This document shows, piece by piece, positions 21,055 through 27,739 of a stretch of DNA of 64,000 nt. The notes beneath the pieces were generated by a model that searched no databases, was not told the DNA's origin, and saw only the letters and a program-made list of their open reading frames with translations. The position numbers were made by a program, and so were the translations under genes. Positions within the stretch are counted from its first letter, which is position 1. Every line of letters starts with the position of its first letter. Source of the stretch: a virus (Duplodnaviria > Heunggongvirae > Uroviricota > Caudoviricetes); IMG/VR virus record IMGVR_UViG_2778261268_000002. One strand, written 5' to 3'.

Positions 21055-21342
21055 TTAACAGACTGGTAGCGATAGTAAATTATTATTCCATCGATTGTCT
21101 GCATACGTTCTAATAAACTGCCTTCCACCATTACCAGGATTAACAACCCCAACTTCTACACGATTACCTGCATTATCTGTTACATAGAATGTATGGAGAT
21201 TATTATCAATAGCATTAATTACCTGCTCAACAGTCCATTTCCCATTGCTAGTATTAAATTGAGGACTTCCCACATGAGTAATATGCTCATGGATTGATTG
21301 CGAGCCGGAGAGGGTAATGCAAGTAATGCGTACATCAGCCAT
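21055..21342 (-). CDS. Small conserved protein (DUF3892-like)
   Basis: 95 aa from ATG at 21342 (RBS AAGGAAG); MADVRITCITLSGS...HITHVG...FYVTDNAGNRVEVGVV; AT-rich. Confidence 0.45.
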   Translation of the reverse strand: MADVRITCITLSGSQSIHEHITHVGSPQFNTSNGKWTVEQVINAIDNNLHTFYVTDNAGNRVEVGVVNPGNGGRQFIRTYADNRWNNNLLSLPVC

Positions 21343-21630
21343 ATATACTTCCTTTATTCTATAGATTATAGGAATTGCGTTGTCCAAAAAACAAACAACA
21401 CAATAACAATAAAGAAACATACACACAACAAAAACTAACGCTATTTATTGATAGATTTGCCTGATGAATGCTAGCTCTCTTTGCTGCCTAGCACTCAAAC
21501 AAATAACAGAAGAAAGCCCCAGATAACATTACGCGTCCTGCAAGACGCTTAACATTAATCTGAGGCCATATCCATGCTTAGCATATCTAGATTAACCCTC
21601 TCCCCTTTTAAGGAGCAAGGAATTTTACTG

Positions 21631-22227
21631 CTATGCCGCCTTTCCAGTTATGGATTCAGCGACAAGAACAACCCCATGCTTACTTCGATCTGGGTGTTCA
21701 CTCCATATCTCAGATTCAGGAATACTTACCCCGTCATAGCAAACACGTTCGCCGTCAAACGGGTAATACTGAGCGGCATCGGTGTCGAGGATAAACACTT
21801 TTAGCTCGGAAGAGCGACGGGCGATGTGTTGCCAAAGAGCTTTTCCACCTTCGTATTGCTCATTATCACTAAGCAAAACAACACCAGCTTTTGAGGCTAC
21901 GGTTTCGTAAACAAAAGTAGCTAAACCGACATCACGGACGGTTCCATCAACCACGATACCTTCAATCTGGGCAACATCGCTATCCTCCCAGAACTTCCTT
22001 ACCAGTACGCCTTCAAGCTGCGGGCGACGTTGAAGTTCAAGAGTAGCGACAACCTTATGGCGCATATCACCATCGATAACAGAAGGCGCAGCCTCTATTA
22101 CAGCTGCAAATGGGGTTTTGGAATCCCATATAACCTGGTAAAGCACACCCTGGATGGTAACTCCGTCCAGGATCGAAAATCGACGAGCGACAGTACCCGG
22201 GGAGTACGACATTGGAATCACAGCCAT
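21631..22227 (-). CDS. Hypothetical protein
   Basis: 198 aa from ATG at 22227 (RBS AAAGGGGGA). Confidence 0.5.
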   Translation of the reverse strand: MAVIPMSYSPGTVARRFSILDGVTIQGVLYQVIWDSKTPFAAVIEAAPSVIDGDMRHKVVATLELQRRPQLEGVLVRKFWEDSDVAQIEGIVVDGTVRDVGLATFVYETVASKAGVVLLSDNEQYEGGKALWQHIARRSSELKVFILDTDAAQYYPFDGERVCYDGVSIPESEIWSEHPDRSKHGVVLVAESITGKAA

Positions 22228-22360
22228 TTTAGAGTCCCCCTTTAACAGTACAGGCACAAACATCTACCTCAATAATTGTAGTTTATTAGAACATTAATAA
22301 TCTAACATAAAACTCCAGACAATGTTATCGATGCATGTTTATATAAAATAGTTATAAAAA

Positions 22361-22398: not shown

Positions 22399-22908
22399 TT
22401 AATCCCACTCAATCCAGTTGTAAACGATACGAAGTGACGGACGCACAGCGGCAGTCACATCTTCGGTACTAAAGTCGATTGCATCACTGTAGATTTTGCA
22501 GTCCAACATTTCAATTGTTGTAGCAGCTTTTGTCACAGCGTTAACCCCGGAAGATTTGGATTCAGGGGTCGCAGCCATCGTGATATCAACATAGTCCTTC
22601 GCCGCAATGCGATCTTTAATGAACTGAAGAATATCGCCTTCGATAGTCTCCACGCACTGGACCTGGATTTCCCCAGAGTTTCGAATTGGACCGTGCTGGT
22701 TGAACTTCACACCATTCGGACCATAGTCCTCCACATCCTCGCGGGTCATTTCAGGAATTTGCGACGTGCGAACCAGTACGCTGATATCTTCATGGCCTGC
22801 AAAAGTGAGCTGGAATTCAGAAGATACCAGTCGTTCGCCTTTGGCCGCGTTGGCAGTATAGCGGCCCTTAATAAATTTACGGTTTCCCTTAGTGTTATTG
22901 TGCCCCAT
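22399..22908 (-). CDS. Putative baseplate/tail structural protein
   Basis: 169 aa; composition and size typical of tail tube or baseplate proteins; in operon with sheath and capsid genes. Confidence 0.45.
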   Translation of the reverse strand: MGHNNTKGNRKFIKGRYTANAAKGERLVSSEFQLTFAGHEDISVLVRTSQIPEMTREDVEDYGPNGVKFNQHGPIRNSGEIQVQCVETIEGDILQFIKDRIAAKDYVDITMAATPESKSSGVNAVTKAATTIEMLDCKIYSDAIDFSTEDVTAAVRPSLRIVYNWIEWD

Positions 22909-22919
22909 ATAAAATCCTT

Positions 22920-23501
22920 TTACTGGAACGCCCGAACAATATCGGAGCTGTTATATATCGAAGAACCGGTCAACTGGAGGTTGACGGTGTTTTTCAGGAA
23001 ATGCCCATTGCTGTCCCTGGGCGCATCGAGATCGAAACTTATGTCCTGGATAGCGACATCAATGATGTTGATCCGGCGACCAATGTTTAGCGTCACACGC
23101 TCCGGGATTCGACCTCCAATACTGGCATCTTTAAGTTCCGGGCTAATCATCGCTGACAATGCGGCGATAGCTCCTGAAACCTCCGTGAATGGATCAAACA
23201 AAGCGATGAAAGTTACTGGCAGCGTGAAAGTTGGCGGTGTTCCCCCCTCCCAAACCATTAAGCTGTTCCAACGGGCCACCGACGTTGTTTCAGTACCAAC
23301 CTGCGCAAAACCACTGAAGGCACCAGCAACAGACCCCATGGACATACCGGTAAACGGCGCTTCCCAATTCTGGGCCATGTTCATTGCTGCCCCCTGGCTG
23401 ATATATCCGGTAACCTGGTACTGAGAGTTCGTTAAAGTAACTTTCAGAAATGGCGATACACCGTCAGCCTGGCTGTAAACCCCATAAGGTATAGGTGCCA
23501 T
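22920..23501 (-). CDS. Hypothetical structural protein
   Basis: 193 aa; Gly/Ser/Ala/Thr-rich. Confidence 0.45.
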   Translation of the reverse strand: MAPIPYGVYSQADGVSPFLKVTLTNSQYQVTGYISQGAAMNMAQNWEAPFTGMSMGSVAGAFSGFAQVGTETTSVARWNSLMVWEGGTPPTFTLPVTFIALFDPFTEVSGAIAALSAMISPELKDASIGGRIPERVTLNIGRRINIIDVAIQDISFDLDAPRDSNGHFLKNTVNLQLTGSSIYNSSDIVRAFQ

Positions 23502-23536
23502 TCAAGTTAAAGGCCGGAGTTCTCCGGCCTCCTCCT

Positions 23537-24352
23537 TTAGCCAAGGCGCTTACGGCGCAGTTTCATTGACTTTTTGCGGGCAAGTTTTGCCGCACCCGTC
23601 TGGGCTTTTCGACGCGCTTTTTTCAGCGCCGATTTTTGAGCCGCAGTCAGACGTTTTTTACGCAGGCGTTTACGGATGAGTTTGATCTCACCGTTACGAA
23701 CAACCTTCTTAAATGCTTCAGTCAGCATTTCATCAGAAGTGCCAGCAACAACAAACGCCGCTTCCAGTTCGTCACGGTCGTCGCTATCTAAACCAGCGAT
23801 AGAGGCACCAACATCAGCAGCTGCGTCGTCGTCTTCATCGTCAGCCAGTGCTTCGATCAGGTCATCATCTACACCGCATGCTGCGAGGAAGTCAGCAACA
23901 TTTGCCCATGCTTCGTTATAGGCATCGTCCTGTTCTTCTGTAACTTCGGAGTCGTCGTCATCAGAGATACCAGCGATAGCCTGAACGAAACCATCAAGGG
24001 AGTCGAAAGTCAGATCACCGCTATCAGCCCAGGCGAAAACGGCGTCGGCCGCATCACTCAACGCATTCTGCATAGCACTTCGATTTGCAGCTTCCAGAAT
24101 CATCTGGTGCGCCTGTTCGACGGTCCATTCTTTACCGTCTTTCCCTTCCAGGATTTGCTCAGGAGCCGGGGCAGATGGAACGTTATCGTTAGTCTGTGCC
24201 GCCGGTTCCGGATTATTATTAATAACCGGATCTGTTGGCGGTTCGGCGCTTACTCGGGCAGACTCCATCAGCTGCACAGGATCAGAGTTCAAAGCGAAAC
24301 GAGACAGTCCATTCCCCAAAAATGCCCCGGATTGAAAAAAGTTTTTGCTCAT
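23537..24352 (-). CDS. Highly acidic protein with Lys/Arg-rich C-terminal tail
   Basis: 271 aa; central poly-Asp/Glu stretches (DDDDSEVTEEQDD, DDEDDDAAAD) and C-terminal RKRLRKKRL...KLRRKRLG. Confidence 0.5.
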   Translation of the reverse strand: MSKNFFQSGAFLGNGLSRFALNSDPVQLMESARVSAEPPTDPVINNNPEPAAQTNDNVPSAPAPEQILEGKDGKEWTVEQAHQMILEAANRSAMQNALSDAADAVFAWADSGDLTFDSLDGFVQAIAGISDDDDSEVTEEQDDAYNEAWANVADFLAACGVDDDLIEALADDEDDDAAADVGASIAGLDSDDRDELEAAFVVAGTSDEMLTEAFKKVVRNGEIKLIRKRLRKKRLTAAQKSALKKARRKAQTGAAKLARKKSMKLRRKRLG

Positions 24353-24361
24353 TGTATTCCC

Positions 24362-25951
24362 TTACTTAATAAGCAGCGGTACGCCCTGGATACGACGGGC
24401 TACGCCAGTCGGGCAGCAGGCCCAGACTACTTCCCATTTATCGAATTCCGCCTGCGTAACTTTCAGCACATACGGTTCTGTACCGTCAGCATCAGGATCA
24501 CGAGGAGCCACCAGAGCGCCGGAGGCGACAAAGCGATCCAAAAGTTTGGTCATCCCTTTAGTCAGACCAGCGGCAGTAATACCGTCAGGGCTATGCTTCA
24601 TCTGGCGGGCTAACTGGACAAAGAAACGGCTGATTGCATTCATCAGGGATGGGACGTGCTGGAAGTGCAGATAGTTATCCTGCGTGCAGCAAGTTAAAGC
24701 ATCGTCGATGATCATCTGGCCAGAGGTGCCAACAGATACTTTATTGAGACGGCCCTTGACCATTGCTTCTTCGTCCGGGGTATCTTCCGGATACAGCGGT
24801 TGAATTGACGCACGAGCAATGACGGCACGTTCTTCACCAGCCGGTGAGTAATGCCAACCGCCGACATCGGAGTTTTTCTTGACGCCACGAGCTTTCGCCG
24901 CATACGCCGCGCCAGACAGACCGAAGACCACGCGGGATTGGGTCCATTTGTCTTTGCAGGAGAACGGGAAATGATAGACAGCACAGCTTACATAATCGGT
25001 ACCAAGTAAACCGGTATCTTCAACAGCAGAGATCGCTTCCGTGTACGTCAATGTCGGTTTGACATCAAAGAAGCCATCAATCAGGCGATCAGAACAGATA
25101 TTACCTAACGCAGTGATCGCCGCATTGTCATAGCAACCCAGGCCGAGAACAGCGGTGTACATGTACGGCGCATTGTTCAGCACTTTCACCGCACGCAGGT
25201 AAGCAGCAGTGGAAATGTTCGACTGATCGCCGTTGGTACCGCCAGTGAACGCCAGCGATTTTTTATTTGTTACTTTCGCCGTCGAAATCAGCTCTTCATT
25301 AACAACCGCGCGCAGATATTTAGAACGGGCTTCCAGAGCCGTAGGCAGATAACACAAGCGGCCCATGTCATCTTTCGCTTCTTCCGCCAAAGACACAGTG
25401 TGTGTCTCCAGGGTCGTTACCACGCCGAGCGAAGTCGTCTGGGTCAGTTTTAAGAGGAAGCGTTCATTACCCGCGCTGTCCGCTGTTGCCGTTTCGATGG
25501 TTAACTCACGGGTAGGTGAAATACACGGATCACCATCATCAACGTAGATAGCAAAGGCTTCGCCGCTATCAAGTTCAATTTCAGAACCGTATGGCAACGC
25601 ACTGTAAGCCGGTTCGCCTGATTCATCGAACATAATAATCGGGAACTTCGCATCATCCGGAACAGCACGGACAACATAACCAGACGTTTGCTGAATAGCT
25701 TCGTACACATGGCGAATTGGTTCGAACTGTGAGCCGGAAGACGGCTTCAGCGGTTCGCCGAGAACATCTTCGTAATTGGACTCAGTAACCGCAAGAACAG
25801 TAAACGGCTTGCCACGCGCAAATACGCCAATACCAGCCCACAAGCTGCTATTTAATGCAACACCGGTAGATAACGTCGCATCGGCATTGATCGGGCTAAC
25901 AGCGACGCCGGATGCATTACCTAATGACTGTTGAATTGAATATTGAGACAT
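24362..25951 (-). CDS. Contractile tail sheath protein
   Basis: 529 aa (about 57 kDa); sheath-like composition and size; precedes tail structural genes. Confidence 0.65.
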   Translation of the reverse strand: MSQYSIQQSLGNASGVAVSPINADATLSTGVALNSSLWAGIGVFARGKPFTVLAVTESNYEDVLGEPLKPSSGSQFEPIRHVYEAIQQTSGYVVRAVPDDAKFPIIMFDESGEPAYSALPYGSEIELDSGEAFAIYVDDGDPCISPTRELTIETATADSAGNERFLLKLTQTTSLGVVTTLETHTVSLAEEAKDDMGRLCYLPTALEARSKYLRAVVNEELISTAKVTNKKSLAFTGGTNGDQSNISTAAYLRAVKVLNNAPYMYTAVLGLGCYDNAAITALGNICSDRLIDGFFDVKPTLTYTEAISAVEDTGLLGTDYVSCAVYHFPFSCKDKWTQSRVVFGLSGAAYAAKARGVKKNSDVGGWHYSPAGEERAVIARASIQPLYPEDTPDEEAMVKGRLNKVSVGTSGQMIIDDALTCCTQDNYLHFQHVPSLMNAISRFFVQLARQMKHSPDGITAAGLTKGMTKLLDRFVASGALVAPRDPDADGTEPYVLKVTQAEFDKWEVVWACCPTGVARRIQGVPLLIK

Positions 25952-26011: not shown

Positions 26012-27739
26012 TTACTCAGAGTCACCGGCATCAATCGTGTCGCCGCTTATGAAGTTAAGCCCGCCTTTTTTGGCCATTGTCAGCGTTACACGAGTGAAGT
26101 AATCAGCGCCGTTGCGTGGGTGCATATCGTTGATAGCCGAACCCCACAGCGTGGTACGGTTGACCAGCGCCGGAGTGGTCGGATGCTGGAACGGGATGGC
26201 CGGGACAGCATCACCAGTCACGAAGCCTGCTTTACCCGGATTTTCATCACGGACGTAGCACAGCACATCCATCGAGCTGAACTGAATGTTCTCTGTCGTT
26301 AAGTTCTTACAAATACCAGCAGGTACTTCGTACACTTTCACGTTACCGAACAGGGTACCGATGTAGTGAACATACGGAGTCTGGATATAGTCTTCGGCTG
26401 GCTGGAAGAAATCCTTCGGCAACTGTTTGAAGAAAGATGCTGCATCAGCACCAGCAAACATCCCCATCGCACCAGAAGATTTAACGCGCTCAATAATGTC
26501 GCGATATACAGTCTGGAATTTGCCACGAATGATGGTTGCCCATACATCAAAGGACTGGTTAACCGGCAGAGCGATGTCAAAGGTGTCGGTCGCAAGAGTA
26601 CGCCAGATCATGATGCGAAGACGCAGCATATCCTGTTCATGAGACAGGTATTCCTTCAGGGTGCGGAACTGTAGGGAACCCAGGTCCAGACCAAATTCTC
26701 GCTGTGCTTCATACGCCGCCTGTACCGTGTGCTCAGCCGCGATAACGAACTGGCTTGGGAACAGGGTGTATTTCTTCATTTCGTGGTTGATCAGCGGGAT
26801 CAGCTCAGGAGCGGCTTCAATATTGATTTCCGTCTCAATTGCGATCTCAGTGCCTTTATCCGGCGCTTTGGAGAACGACAGGGCAATCTGACCAATGTTG
26901 TAGTTCAGAGAGCAGGTAACAGTGATTTGCTCACCAGCAGCATTAGTAAACGAGTGAAGTAGGCTGCCGGAACCGTTATCAACAACAGACTTAATACGGT
27001 TAACGTAGATATTAGTGCGACCTTTTCGGATTGGTACATTCTGGCCTTCGAAGTCTTCCATCTTGAAGGTTGCGGTTTTGCTGGTGCCATCGGAGCTTGC
27101 CACCAGCACATAGCGGCGGCGTAACTGGCTGTACACACCGACGGATTGCATGTCCAGAACATCACCAGCAGCATAAGAACCAAAAGAGGAACCTGCCACG
27201 TTAAAGACTTCATAGATGTCGGACTGGTCACGCGTAACCGGAATGAAGGTACACGCATCAGCGGTAGCTGCCCCCAACTGAACAGGCAGGATCATCGCGA
27301 GGAATAAAGGCAGACGCATAACACCGTCAGAAACGCTCATCATCTCTGCTGCGACGGATTCCAGCATCGCTTTATTAGTGGCATCCATGCTATTGCGGGT
27401 GGACTCAATCAGGCAGTTTTCCAGCGTCTGGTGGCAGGAGGCCAGAATTTCCGGACGCGGCATAGATTTATGTGCTGCGGCGTAGTCAGCCAGTGCACTT
27501 GCCCACGCTGTAGCGATTTGAGCGGTGGCATTATCAGAGATACCCGCAAAAACCGGGTCTTTACGTGCAGCTTCAAGGATAGATGCGGCACGCGCGGCAT
27601 CATCTTTAATGAATTGGTTATCAGTACCGAACTGCGCAGTGCTTGCCCAGCCAAGCACAGCTTTAGAGCGTTTTGCGATATCTGCAATACGATTCTGGTA
27701 TTCGCGTAAGTTACTCAATTTACTCTTCCTTAAACACAA
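26012..27739 (-). CDS. Major capsid (head) protein
   Basis: 575 aa; position directly upstream of parS as in P1 gene 23; track start is TTG, true start uncertain (alternative TTG at 27718 with RBS AGGAAG). Confidence 0.55.
   Translation of the reverse strand: MCLRKSKLSNLREYQNRIADIAKRSKAVLGWASTAQFGTDNQFIKDDAARAASILEAARKDPVFAGISDNATAQIATAWASALADYAAAHKSMPRPEILASCHQTLENCLIESTRNSMDATNKAMLESVAAEMMSVSDGVMRLPLFLAMILPVQLGAATADACTFIPVTRDQSDIYEVFNVAGSSFGSYAAGDVLDMQSVGVYSQLRRRYVLVASSDGTSKTATFKMEDFEGQNVPIRKGRTNIYVNRIKSVVDNGSGSLLHSFTNAAGEQITVTCSLNYNIGQIALSFSKAPDKGTEIAIETEINIEAAPELIPLINHEMKKYTLFPSQFVIAAEHTVQAAYEAQREFGLDLGSLQFRTLKEYLSHEQDMLRLRIMIWRTLATDTFDIALPVNQSFDVWATIIRGKFQTVYRDIIERVKSSGAMGMFAGADAASFFKQLPKDFFQPAEDYIQTPYVHYIGTLFGNVKVYEVPAGICKNLTTENIQFSSMDVLCYVRDENPGKAGFVTGDAVPAIPFQHPTTPALVNRTTLWGSAINDMHPRNGADYFTRVTLTMAKKGGLNFISGDTIDAGDSE

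What the first reader, a model, noticed from the sequence alone, without database searches (positions are those of the whole stretch)
23537..24352. Strongly acidic protein with a poly-basic tail among structural genes
Poly-Asp/Glu stretches followed by a Lys/Arg-rich C-terminus resemble DNA-mimic or injected internal proteins (anti-restriction candidates) as much as a scaffold.
Basis: inference. Interest (0 to 1): 0.4.

Follow-up and report, generated by a model that had tools for sequence, protein, structure and literature searches.

The report
Protease-cut head core protein of P1
This acidic protein with a basic tail is gene 21 of a P1-type phage. It is catalogued as a tail or baseplate protein, but its sequence indicates a head-interior (scaffold-type) protein that the head-maturation protease cuts up, as happens to the core proteins of phage T4.

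Summary
Window 23537-24352 (- strand) encodes a 271-aa protein, 97% identical to phage P1 gp21. Residues 101-214 hold 36 D/E and 1 K/R. Residues 215-271 hold 26 K/R and 1 E.

GenBank calls the protein "baseplate or tail tube". It is missing from the P1 virion proteome and from the whole-virion cryo-EM models.

My reading is that gp21 is a prohead-interior (core or scaffold-type) protein and a substrate of the head-maturation protease Pro.

- It carries five hydrophobic-hydrophobic-Glu|Ser/Ala/Gly motifs (0.32 expected). This is the pattern of the proven capsid-protein cut (AMLE|S). Three sites are conserved, including one exactly at the acidic/basic junction (E212|A213).
- Across about 110 distinct related phages, the residue before the cut changes in step in the capsid protein and in the gp21 homologue. 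The changes are E, D, once A and once S, in at least five lineages. The sheath shows no such switch.
- The layout resembles T4 gp68, but homology is only weakly supported.
- The tail phenotype may reflect polarity on pmgG and bplB, or a mis-assigned cistron.
- Nothing supports a DNA mimic or anti-restriction role. Whether the freed 59-aa basic peptide stays with the DNA is open.

This is a re-annotation and a new member of a known kind.

The parts
23537..24352 (-). Gene 21 (gp21), 271 aa plus stop. Proposed prohead core protein and protease substrate.
   Evidence: The ORF is listed. It is 97.5-99.5% identical in DNA to P1-family phages and 97% identical in protein to P1 gp21. It matches PHROG 1053 of unknown function and has no Pfam or NCBIfam hit.
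24263..24352 (-). Residues 1-30, a predicted N-terminal propeptide that ends at the cut site QLME|S.
   Evidence: The LMES motif lies at aa 28-31. An N-terminal site of the same type is conserved across the family. AF2 predicts the region to be disordered.
24092..24262 (-). Residues 31-87, a Pro/Asn-rich disordered linker that ends at the conserved cut site MILE|A. It also holds ILE|G at aa 67-70, which is not conserved.
   Evidence: pLDDT is below 50 for residues 26-72. The motifs are listed. Conservation of phi-phi-E|A at this column is shown.
23717..24091 (-). Residues 88-212, the acidic helical domain (125 aa, net charge -35). It holds a non-conserved LIE|A at aa 165-168.
23714..23725 (-). 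Junction cut site L-T-E|A (aa 210-213). Cleavage is predicted between E212 and A213.
   Evidence: E212 is conserved in at least 90% of sequences. The residue at this position matches the residue before the cut in the capsid protein of the same phage in about 110 distinct loci.
23540..23716 (-). Residues 213-271, the basic module (59 aa, 6.8 kDa, +25, pI 12). It is a predicted beta-hairpin followed by a helical hairpin.
   Evidence: It is the most conserved part of the family, with invariant G221, Q239, K244, A246, K249 and K261. AF2 predicts helices at 237-250 and 253-269 with pLDDT 76-89. The same module occurs in Bacillus and Listeria phages and twice in some proteins. The largest tryptic peptide is 7 aa.
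26012..27718 (-). Gene 23, the major capsid protein. Its N-terminal 120 aa are removed at AMLE|S (codons at 27356-27367).
   Evidence: The cut between E120 and S121 was shown by Edman sequencing (PMC9024508). All three strict motifs of gp23 lie in residues 1-120. This is the reference site for the co-variation test.
24362..25951 (-). Gene 22, the tail sheath, which lies upstream. It served as a negative control for the motif.
   Evidence: It matches PHROG 1036 tail sheath. It has one strict motif in 529 aa. Sheath homologues show no E/D switch.
22399..23501 (-). pmgG (22920-23501, tube-linking protein) and bplB (22399-22908, tail tube). They lie downstream in the same operon and are the likely source of the tail-less phenotype attributed to gene 21.
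   Evidence: PHROG matches are. Their roles come from cryo-EM (PMC12810830 and PMC10304247). No promoter is annotated between genes 23 and bplB in the P1 record. CRISPRi polarity is noted in PMC10695390.
23509..23532 (-). A 10-bp GC-rich RNA hairpin in the 35-nt gap between gene 21 and pmgG.
   Evidence: The fold has -24.8 kcal/mol and a z-score of -2.96. Its function is unknown.

Best explanation
gp21 is a component of the interior (core or scaffold) of the P1 prohead, not a tail or baseplate protein. It is made late from the same transcript as the capsid and sheath proteins and is built into the prohead.

There the maturation protease Pro cuts it at hydrophobic-hydrophobic-Glu|Ser/Ala sites. 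The predicted cuts are after E30 and/or E87, which removes a disordered N-terminal part, and after E212, which separates the acidic helical domain (residues 88-212, charge -35) from the 59-residue basic module (charge +25).

What is shown here: the motifs, their conservation, and their co-variation with the capsid protein's experimentally known cut site.

What is inferred:
- That Pro cuts gp21 at all, that this happens inside the prohead, and at which of these sites.
- That the basic module anchors the protein to an acidic partner. Candidates are the capsid inner surface, the capsid N-terminal domain, other copies' acidic domains, or later the DNA.
- That cutting the junction dissolves this electrostatic network so the core can leave and make room for DNA, as with the T4 core proteins gp22, gp67 and gp68.

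The tail-less phenotype behind the "baseplate or tail tube" label is best explained in one of two ways. Amber mutations in gene 21 may be polar on the downstream essential tail genes pmgG and bplB. Alternatively, the old genetic cistron may have been assigned to the wrong ORF.
For: 1. Motif enrichment. The strict motif [LIMFV][LIMFVT]E[SAG] occurs 5 times in gp21, against 0.32 expected from 20,000 composition-preserving shuffles, none of which reached 5. gp21 has the highest motif density of the 60 ORFs of at least 150 aa in the window.

2. The motif marks known or likely Pro substrates.
- All 3 copies in gp23 lie in the N-terminal 120 aa that are removed. They include the Edman-proven AMLE|S cut (PMC9024508).
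- DarA has LLE|A at residues 66-69, and the cryo-EM model of DarA starts at residue 70.
- Pro itself has 7 copies.
- Tail proteins have few: gp22 has 1, PmgG 0 and BplB 0.

3. Positional conservation. An N-terminal site and the junction site are conserved across the family, and E212 is near-invariant.

4. Co-variation. In about 110 non-identical loci, the residue before the cut is the same in the capsid protein and at the gp21-homologue junction.
- The pairs are 45 E/E, about 60 D/D, one A/A (L188: LMLA|S in both proteins) and one S/S (L225: MLLS|S in both).
- The one seeming mismatch, L197, has an E site 15 residues upstream in its capsid protein.
- On a capsid-protein tree the changes fall in at least five separate lineages.

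5. Motif switching. In E-type phages the homologues carry on average 2.9 E-motifs and 0.44 D-motifs. In D-type phages they carry 0.19 and 1.78. The capsid N-terminal domain switches in the same way. The mature capsid region and the sheath do not.

6. Gene context elsewhere. In Bacillus phage HSE3 and metagenomic locus L006 the same basic module lies in the head/neck gene block: S77 protease, T4-type capsid gene, gp13-like neck gene. It is flanked on both sides by phi-x-E| sites.

7. Similar layout to the T4 core protein gp68: an acidic half, then PLNE|F, then a basic half ending in GL. hhalign gives 68-76% probability and E of about 3e-5. T4 gp68 has about 240 copies in the prohead core and 0 in the mature head (PMC9026906).

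8. gp21 is absent from the virion proteome and from the cryo-EM models. This is expected for a core protein that is removed.
Against: - The GenBank record labels gene 21 "baseplate or tail tube". This label rests on amber mutants studied by electron microscopy (Walker and Walker 1983, cited in PMC10695390). I could not read that paper or the P1 genome paper. I therefore do not know whether the amber alleles were sequenced in this ORF.
- In P1-type phages the gene lies between the sheath gene and tube-like genes, not beside the protease.
- No experiment shows that gp21 is cleaved or that it is present in proheads.
- P1 Pro does not match the T4 protease family S77 by HMM. Its relation to HK97 gp4 is reported only from HHpred.
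- Homology to T4 gp68 is weak. HMMER gives 3.8 bits, and 27 of 2000 composition-preserving shuffles score as well. D-type homologues do not align with gp68. gp21 does not hit the gp68 PHROG.
- Two recent papers hold that the capsid protein's own N-terminal domain serves as the scaffold in P1.
Confidence: 0.7

Rival explanations
1. Tail assembly factor, the current annotation taken at face value. On this reading gp21 is a non-virion chaperone needed to build the baseplate or to polymerise the very long tail tube. For example, it might hold the tube protein or the tape measure through its charged blocks.
For: The record's note reads "baseplate or tail tube". Amber mutants have been reported. The gene is conserved between the sheath gene and the tube-linking and tube genes, even in distant relatives. 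The protein is absent from the virion, as a chaperone would be. The tube lumen is negatively charged, so it could in principle bind a basic tail.
Against: - This reading does not explain the enrichment, positional conservation and E/D/A/S co-variation of the head-protease motif with the capsid cut site. The sheath, a true tail protein, shows none of this.
- In Bacillus-phage relatives the module lies in the head/neck block, six genes upstream of the sheath.
- The tail-less phenotype can arise from polarity on pmgG and bplB, both essential tail genes in the same operon.
- PmgB already occupies the position typical of a tape-measure chaperone.
Confidence: 0.12
2. DNA mimic or injected anti-restriction protein. 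On this reading the acidic domain imitates DNA to block restriction enzymes after it is ejected with the genome.
For: The domain has a high density of negative charge and folds as a helical unit. P1 does package and eject anti-restriction proteins.
Against: - gp21 was not detected in virions by LC-MS/MS.
- The acidic sequence is the less conserved part of the protein, and the basic module is the best conserved.
- The family is a syntenic core gene of the structural module, not a variable accessory gene.
[quoted passage not shown] Gene 21 itself was not tested.
Confidence: 0.05

Closest known systems
T4 gp68, a prohead core protein (PF26830, PHROG 1049 "head scaffolding protein")
   Same: Both have an acidic N-terminal part, then a phi-x-E site (PLNE|F in gp68, MLTE|A here), then a strongly basic C-terminal part. 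The elements of that basic part line up: V-x-x-x-G-E-I, then A-x-Q-x-x-x-L-x-K-A-[KR]-R, then a run of K/R ending in G-L. gp68 sits in the prohead core at about 240 copies and is absent from the mature head, which matches the absence of gp21 from P1 virions. The T4 protease cuts after Glu in L/I-x-E.
   Different: gp21 is twice as long. It has a long disordered N-terminus and a 125-aa folded acidic domain that gp68 lacks. gp68 has an extra insertion of about 14 residues in its basic part. The gp68 gene lies between the portal and protease genes, whereas gene 21 lies between the sheath and tube-like genes. Sequence relatedness is marginal: hhalign gives 68-76%, HMMER gives 3.8 bits with 27 of 2000 shuffles as good, and there is no cross-hit between PHROG 1053 and PHROG 1049.
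T4 gp22 and gp67, the acidic scaffolding core proteins that the prohead protease cuts into fragments
   Same: They are acidic, helical, made late, carry several protease sites and are largely removed from the head.
   Different: There is no detectable sequence relation (hhalign probability 0.9% against gp22). gp22 and gp67 have no basic module.
Scaffolding proteins with a basic C-terminal helix-turn-helix that binds the coat protein, such as P22 gp8 (from my own knowledge, not tested here)
   Same: Both have an elongated helical acidic body and a small basic C-terminal helical hairpin, which AF2 predicts at residues 237-269.
   Different: P22 scaffold exits intact and is recycled, whereas this protein carries protease sites. 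No sequence or fold match was found. The basic module is much more conserved between distant phages than a coat-binding domain would be expected to be.
T4 internal proteins IPI-III and P1 DarA/DarB, packaged proteins that are ejected with the DNA
   Same: They are head-interior proteins. DarA and the T4 IPs lose an N-terminal piece to the prohead protease.
   Different: Those proteins keep their main body in the virion, and DarA and DarB were detected there by LC-MS/MS. gp21 was not detected, and its conserved cut at the domain junction is more like a core protein.

Membership tests
Substrates of the prohead maturation protease (prohead core or internal proteins) | Carries the protease's recognition motif, the same motif as at the proven capsid-protein cut, more often than chance would give. 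| tested here: met
   gp21 has 5 strict motifs against 0.32 expected, and 0 of 20,000 shuffles reached 5. It has the highest density in the window. The motif equals the gp23 E120|S121 site and predicts the start of the DarA model.
Substrates of the prohead maturation protease (prohead core or internal proteins) | The site residues co-evolve with the cut site of the capsid protein in the same phage. | tested here: met
   The pairs are 45 E/E, about 60 D/D, 1 A/A and 1 S/S, with no true mismatch, across at least five independent lineages. The E/D motif counts switch in gp21 homologues and in the capsid N-terminal domain, but not in the sheath.
Substrates of the prohead maturation protease (prohead core or internal proteins) | The protein is physically present in proheads and is cleaved there. 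| not testable with these tools
   This needs prohead purification with Western blotting or mass spectrometry. The published virion proteome neither shows nor excludes it.
T4 gp68 family (PF26830 / PHROG 1049) | A significant profile match to the family. | tested here: inconclusive
   gp21 has no PHROG 1049 hit, and gp68 has no PHROG 1053 hit. hhalign gives 73-76% for A2 against gp68 and 68% for A6, but 3.7% for A5. HMMER gives 3.8 bits, with 27 of 2000 shuffles as good. PF26830 is not in the local Pfam copy.
T4 gp68 family (PF26830 / PHROG 1049) | The layout is acidic N-part, then a phi-x-E site, then a basic C-part ending in G-L. | tested here: met
   
T4 gp68 family (PF26830 / PHROG 1049) | The gene lies in the head-core cluster, between the portal and protease genes. 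| tested here: not met
   In P1-type phages the gene follows the sheath gene. In HSE3 and L006 it follows the capsid and gp13-like neck genes.
Tail tube or baseplate structural proteins (the current label) | The protein is present in the virion tail or baseplate. | tested here: not met
   It is not among the 23 proteins found by LC-MS/MS. It is not among the proteins modelled or named in the tail and baseplate cryo-EM studies. This rests on literature, not on my own measurement.
Tail tube or baseplate structural proteins (the current label) | A tube-like or baseplate fold, or a match to such a family. | tested here: not met
DNA-mimic anti-restriction proteins (Ocr/ArdA type) | A fold that resembles a known DNA mimic. 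| tested here: not met
DNA-mimic anti-restriction proteins (Ocr/ArdA type) | Protects incoming DNA from restriction. | not testable with these tools
   This needs plating assays on restricting hosts.

The most novel reading that the evidence does not exclude
On this reading the functional end-product is the 59-residue basic module, not the whole protein. The prohead protease excises it: from the C-terminus in P1-type phages, from between two cut sites in Bacillus-phage relatives, and twice over in some proteins.

The module would then stay in the head as a small, folded, protamine-like DNA-binding peptide and enter the cell with the genome. There it could aid DNA condensation or protect the incoming linear DNA. 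The acidic domain would act as a built-in neutralising pro-piece, in effect an intramolecular DNA stand-in, until packaging.

Trypsin-based proteomics cannot see such a peptide, because its largest tryptic fragment is 7 residues.

The reading would explain why the module is far better conserved between E. coli, Xanthomonas, Bacillus and Listeria phages than the rest of the protein.
Probability: 0.2. Interest if true: 0.65.

Novelty: new member of a known kind. Interest (0 to 1): 0.45.

Why it matters
P1 is a classic model phage and the prototype of a very large group of phage-plasmids. Two recent structural and proteomic papers state that P1 has no separate scaffolding protein. Databases propagate "tail tube protein" for this gene into thousands of records.

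If gp21 is a protease-processed core protein, three things follow:
- The P1 head-assembly model needs a new component.
- A long-standing gene label is wrong.
- A family of about 600 sequence clusters gains a function.

The co-variation between the capsid cut site and candidate substrates is also a general, cheap way to find head-interior proteins in uncharacterised phages. It additionally reveals phages whose protease seems to have shifted from Glu to Asp, Ala or Ser specificity.

Tried and rejected
- Family libraries. Pfam, NCBIfam and a PDB sequence-profile search on gp21 gave nothing.
- Tail assembly chaperone. I first favoured this reading, because of the annotation, the position among tail genes and the absence from virions. 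I dropped it once the protease-motif co-variation appeared.
- Source papers. I could not obtain Lobocka 2004 or Walker and Walker 1983. The basis for assigning the genetic cistron 21 to this ORF is therefore unchecked.
- tblastn with a consensus basic module against phage genomes. The low-complexity filter masked the query and the search was uninformative.
- First scan for related loci. It returned 80 near-identical P1 copies. I had to repeat it with alignments of distant members, and one of those alignments was too divergent to use.
- P1 Pro and family S77. Pro does not match this family by HMM, so the parallel with the T4 protease rests on the shared Glu-specific motif, not on family membership.
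- Shared capsid-targeting signal. The DarB N-terminus shows no similarity to gp21 and no cut motif.
- Homology to T4 gp22. Rejected, with hhalign probability 0.9%.

Full report
**What is there**

The finding's coordinates, 23537-24352, are exactly one minus-strand ORF of 271 codons plus the stop. The window is a P1-type phage or phage-plasmid. The ORF is 97.5-99.5% identical in DNA to 19 P1-family records, and its product is 97% identical to P1 gp21. The P1 record notes gene 21 as "baseplate or tail tube".

The neighbouring genes on the same strand are:
- gene 23, major capsid protein (26012-27718);
- gene 22, tail sheath (24362-25951);
- this gene;
- pmgG (22920-23501);
- bplB (22399-22908).

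The record annotates a late promoter upstream of gene 23 and no promoter between gene 23 and the end of bplB.

- Residues 101-214 contain 36 Asp/Glu and one Lys/Arg.
- Residues 215-271 contain 26 Lys/Arg and one Glu.
- The probability of this K/R clustering is 1.6e-14.
- The layout is conserved in a family of 594 clusters at 50% identity.
- The basic tail, not the acidic part, is the best-conserved region. G221, Q239, K244, A246, K249 and K261 are invariant.
- AlphaFold2 with a 68-sequence alignment predicts three parts: a disordered N-terminus (1-72), a confident helical acidic domain (78-205, pLDDT about 90), and a basic helical hairpin (237-269, pLDDT 76-89).
- No family library or structure library gave a meaningful match. 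PHROG 1053 has "unknown function".

**What the literature says**

- The 2022 LC-MS/MS proteome of purified P1 virions lists 23 proteins, and gp21 is not among them. The same paper states that no scaffolding protein has been identified in P1. It also shows by Edman sequencing that the capsid protein gp23 is cut between E120 and S121 (PMC9024508).
- The 2023 and 2026 cryo-EM studies name or model the proteins of the tail, neck, baseplate and head. gp21 does not appear in them. BplB is the tail tube, PmgG is the tube-linking ring and Tub is the tube initiator (PMC10304247, PMC12810830).
- A genome-wide CRISPRi screen scored gene 21 as essential. The authors stress that such knock-downs are polar on downstream genes. 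For gene 21 they list only "amber mutant reported", citing Walker and Walker 1983 (PMC10695390).
- I could not read the 1983 paper or the 2004 P1 genome paper.

**The key result: protease motifs**

The proven gp23 cut is A-M-L-E|S. gp21 contains five copies of the strict pattern [LIMFV][LIMFVT]E[SAG]:
- LME|S at residues 28-31;
- ILE|G at 67-70;
- ILE|A at 85-88;
- LIE|A at 165-168;
- LTE|A at 210-213.

Shuffling predicts 0.32 copies, and none of 20,000 shuffles reached five. This is the highest motif density among the 60 ORFs of at least 150 aa in the window.

The same pattern marks regions known or likely to be cut by the head protease:
- All three copies in gp23 lie in the 120 residues that are removed.
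- DarA has LLE|A at 66-69, and the cryo-EM model of DarA begins at residue 70.
- The protease Pro itself has seven copies.
- The tail proteins gp22, PmgG and BplB have one, none and none.

Across the family, the conserved sites are one or two N-terminal ones and the one at the acidic/basic junction.

**Co-variation**

I collected about 160 related loci from viral contigs with three different query alignments. In each I located the capsid-protein homologue and the gp21 homologue.

The residue before the capsid protein's aligned cut site and the residue before the gp21-homologue junction are the same in about 110 non-identical loci. There are 45 Glu/Glu pairs and about 60 Asp/Asp pairs. The parser's six "mismatches" were alignment or regex slips that resolve on inspection.

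Two loci are especially telling:
- In L188 every site in both proteins reads LMLA|S or LMLA|A.
- In L225 every site reads LLS|S.

L197 has an Asp site aligned in its capsid protein but also an IFE|S site 15 residues upstream, which matches its Glu-type gp21 homologue.

On a neighbour-joining tree of the mature capsid region, the non-Glu states fall in at least five separate places.

Counting motifs gives the same picture:

| Phage type | Mean E-motifs in gp21 homologues | Mean D-motifs in gp21 homologues |
|---|---|---|
| Glu-type | 2.9 | 0.44 |
| Asp-type | 0.19 | 1.78 |

The capsid N-terminal domain switches in the same way. The mature capsid region and the sheath do not switch, and their motif density is about ten times lower.

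I take this as strong evidence that gp21-family proteins are cut by the same protease that matures the capsid protein. That protease acts inside the prohead.

**Relatives outside the P1 group**

- The basic module recurs, at up to 65% identity over 34 residues, in Bacillus phage vB_BceM-HSE3 gp066, Bacillus phage SP-15, Listeria phage LIS04 and metagenomic locus L006.
- In those genomes the gene lies in the head/neck block: S77-family protease fused to a coiled coil, T4-type capsid gene, gp13-like neck gene.
- There the module is flanked on both sides by phi-x-E| sites, for example LDE|A ... RLGE|S in HSE3.
- Some proteins carry the module twice.
- In distant P1-type relatives the gene order is capsid, small gene, sheath, gp21, PmgG, BplB, PmgC, Tub, PmgB, tape measure. 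Head, neck and tail genes are therefore interleaved in this lineage, and position next to the sheath gene says little about function.

**Comparison with T4**

The T4 prohead protease cuts after Glu in the short motif L/I-x-E. It cuts the core proteins gp22, gp67 and gp68 into fragments that mostly leave the head (PMC9026906, PMC9958956).

A T4-type gp68 (141 aa) has the same layout as gp21. It has an acidic half, then PLNE|F, then a basic half whose elements line up with the gp21 module and which ends in G-L.

- hhalign gives 73-76% probability (E about 3e-5) for the P1-type alignment and 68% for an intermediate one, but only 3.7% for the Asp-type alignment.
- A HMMER profile of the module scores gp68 at 3.8 bits, and 27 of 2000 composition-preserving shuffles score as well.

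I therefore treat gp68 as the closest functional counterpart and a possible, unproven, remote homologue. gp68 is present at about 240 copies in the prohead core and is absent from mature heads. This matches the absence of gp21 from P1 virions.

**Reconciling the tail phenotype**

pmgG and bplB lie directly downstream in the same operon. Both are essential tail components. An amber mutation in gene 21 could lower their expression by transcriptional polarity. Alternatively, the genetic cistron "21" may in fact correspond to one of them. Either would give heads without tails. This is inference, and sequencing the old alleles together with a non-polar deletion would settle it.

**Mechanism**

Shown: the charge blocks, the predicted fold, the motifs, their conservation and their co-variation.

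Inferred:
- gp21 is built into the prohead.
- Pro removes the disordered N-terminal part and separates the acidic domain (13 kDa, charge -35) from the basic module (6.8 kDa, charge +25).
- Separation dissolves an electrostatic network that held the protein to an acidic partner or to other copies of itself, which clears the head for DNA.

Whether the basic peptide then leaves or stays with the DNA is open. Its largest tryptic peptide is seven residues, and most other fragments would be semi-tryptic, so the published proteome could not have detected them. The unusually high conservation of the module between distant phages argues for a conserved partner such as DNA. I rate this retained-peptide reading at about 0.2.

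The "scaffold" alternative is supported. The "DNA mimic or anti-restriction" idea has no support from fold, conservation pattern, genomic behaviour or proteomics. The "injected" idea survives only for the basic peptide.

**Verdict**

This is a real, well-conserved feature. Its current tail-protein label is probably wrong. It is best read as a protease-processed prohead core protein, a new member of a known kind. It is of moderate interest to phage-assembly specialists and useful as a correction for a widely propagated annotation.

Noticed in passing
window 23509-23532 (- strand): A stable 10-bp GC-rich RNA hairpin (-24.8 kcal/mol, z -2.96) followed by UUUAACUU fills most of the 35-nt gap between the gene 21 stop and the pmgG start. 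It could be an attenuator or an mRNA-stability element that sets different expression levels for genes 23-22-21 and for pmgG-bplB. A terminator-like site follows bplB at 22379-22360.
   Followed up: partly
window 21055-22263 (- strand): Downstream of bplB the window differs from reference P1, which has pmgF and then rlfB there. The window has a 210-aa ORF (21631-22263, PHROG 7522, unknown function, no Pfam hit) and a DUF3892 protein (21055-21342). This looks like a variable cargo spot.
   Followed up: partly
L173:15-1034 (P1 pro): The P1 head protease Pro carries seven phi-phi-E-[SAG] motifs. Its C-terminal half gives only weak coiled-coil-type Pfam hits. This suggests self-processing and perhaps a scaffold-like tail, as in the protease/coiled-coil fusions of HSE3 and L006. 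RefSeq labels this protein "tail fiber protein", which looks wrong.
   Followed up: partly
L174:4605-6524 (P1 darA) and L172:1813-3522 (P1 prt): The motif LLE|A at DarA residues 66-69 predicts the unknown DarA processing site, and the cryo-EM model starts at residue 70. The portal has ILES at residues 557-560, inside the C-terminal segment (534-569) that is invisible by cryo-EM, so it may be trimmed as well.
   Followed up: partly
L188 and L225 (viral contigs): In these two phages every predicted cut site has Ala (LMLA|S/A) or Ser (LLS|S) before the cut instead of Glu or Asp. This holds in both the capsid protein and the gp21 homologue, and implies a shift in the specificity of the head protease.
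   Followed up: partly
P0182, P0216 (L006:5703-6941), P0227, P0186 (L010:4081-5334): Some family members carry two basic modules, each preceded by a cut motif. P0216 begins with a Cys-rich stretch that looks like a zinc ribbon. P0186 has a long N-terminal array of repeated xTVLD|NAE units, which looks like a string of protease sites.
   Followed up: no
L002:5924-6235, L004:5823-6371, L009:7740-8129, L010:1842-2357, L007:6493-7152: Distant P1-type relatives have a small gene (103-220 aa, no family match) between the capsid and sheath genes. P1 and this window lack it. It might be another head accessory or core component.
   Followed up: no
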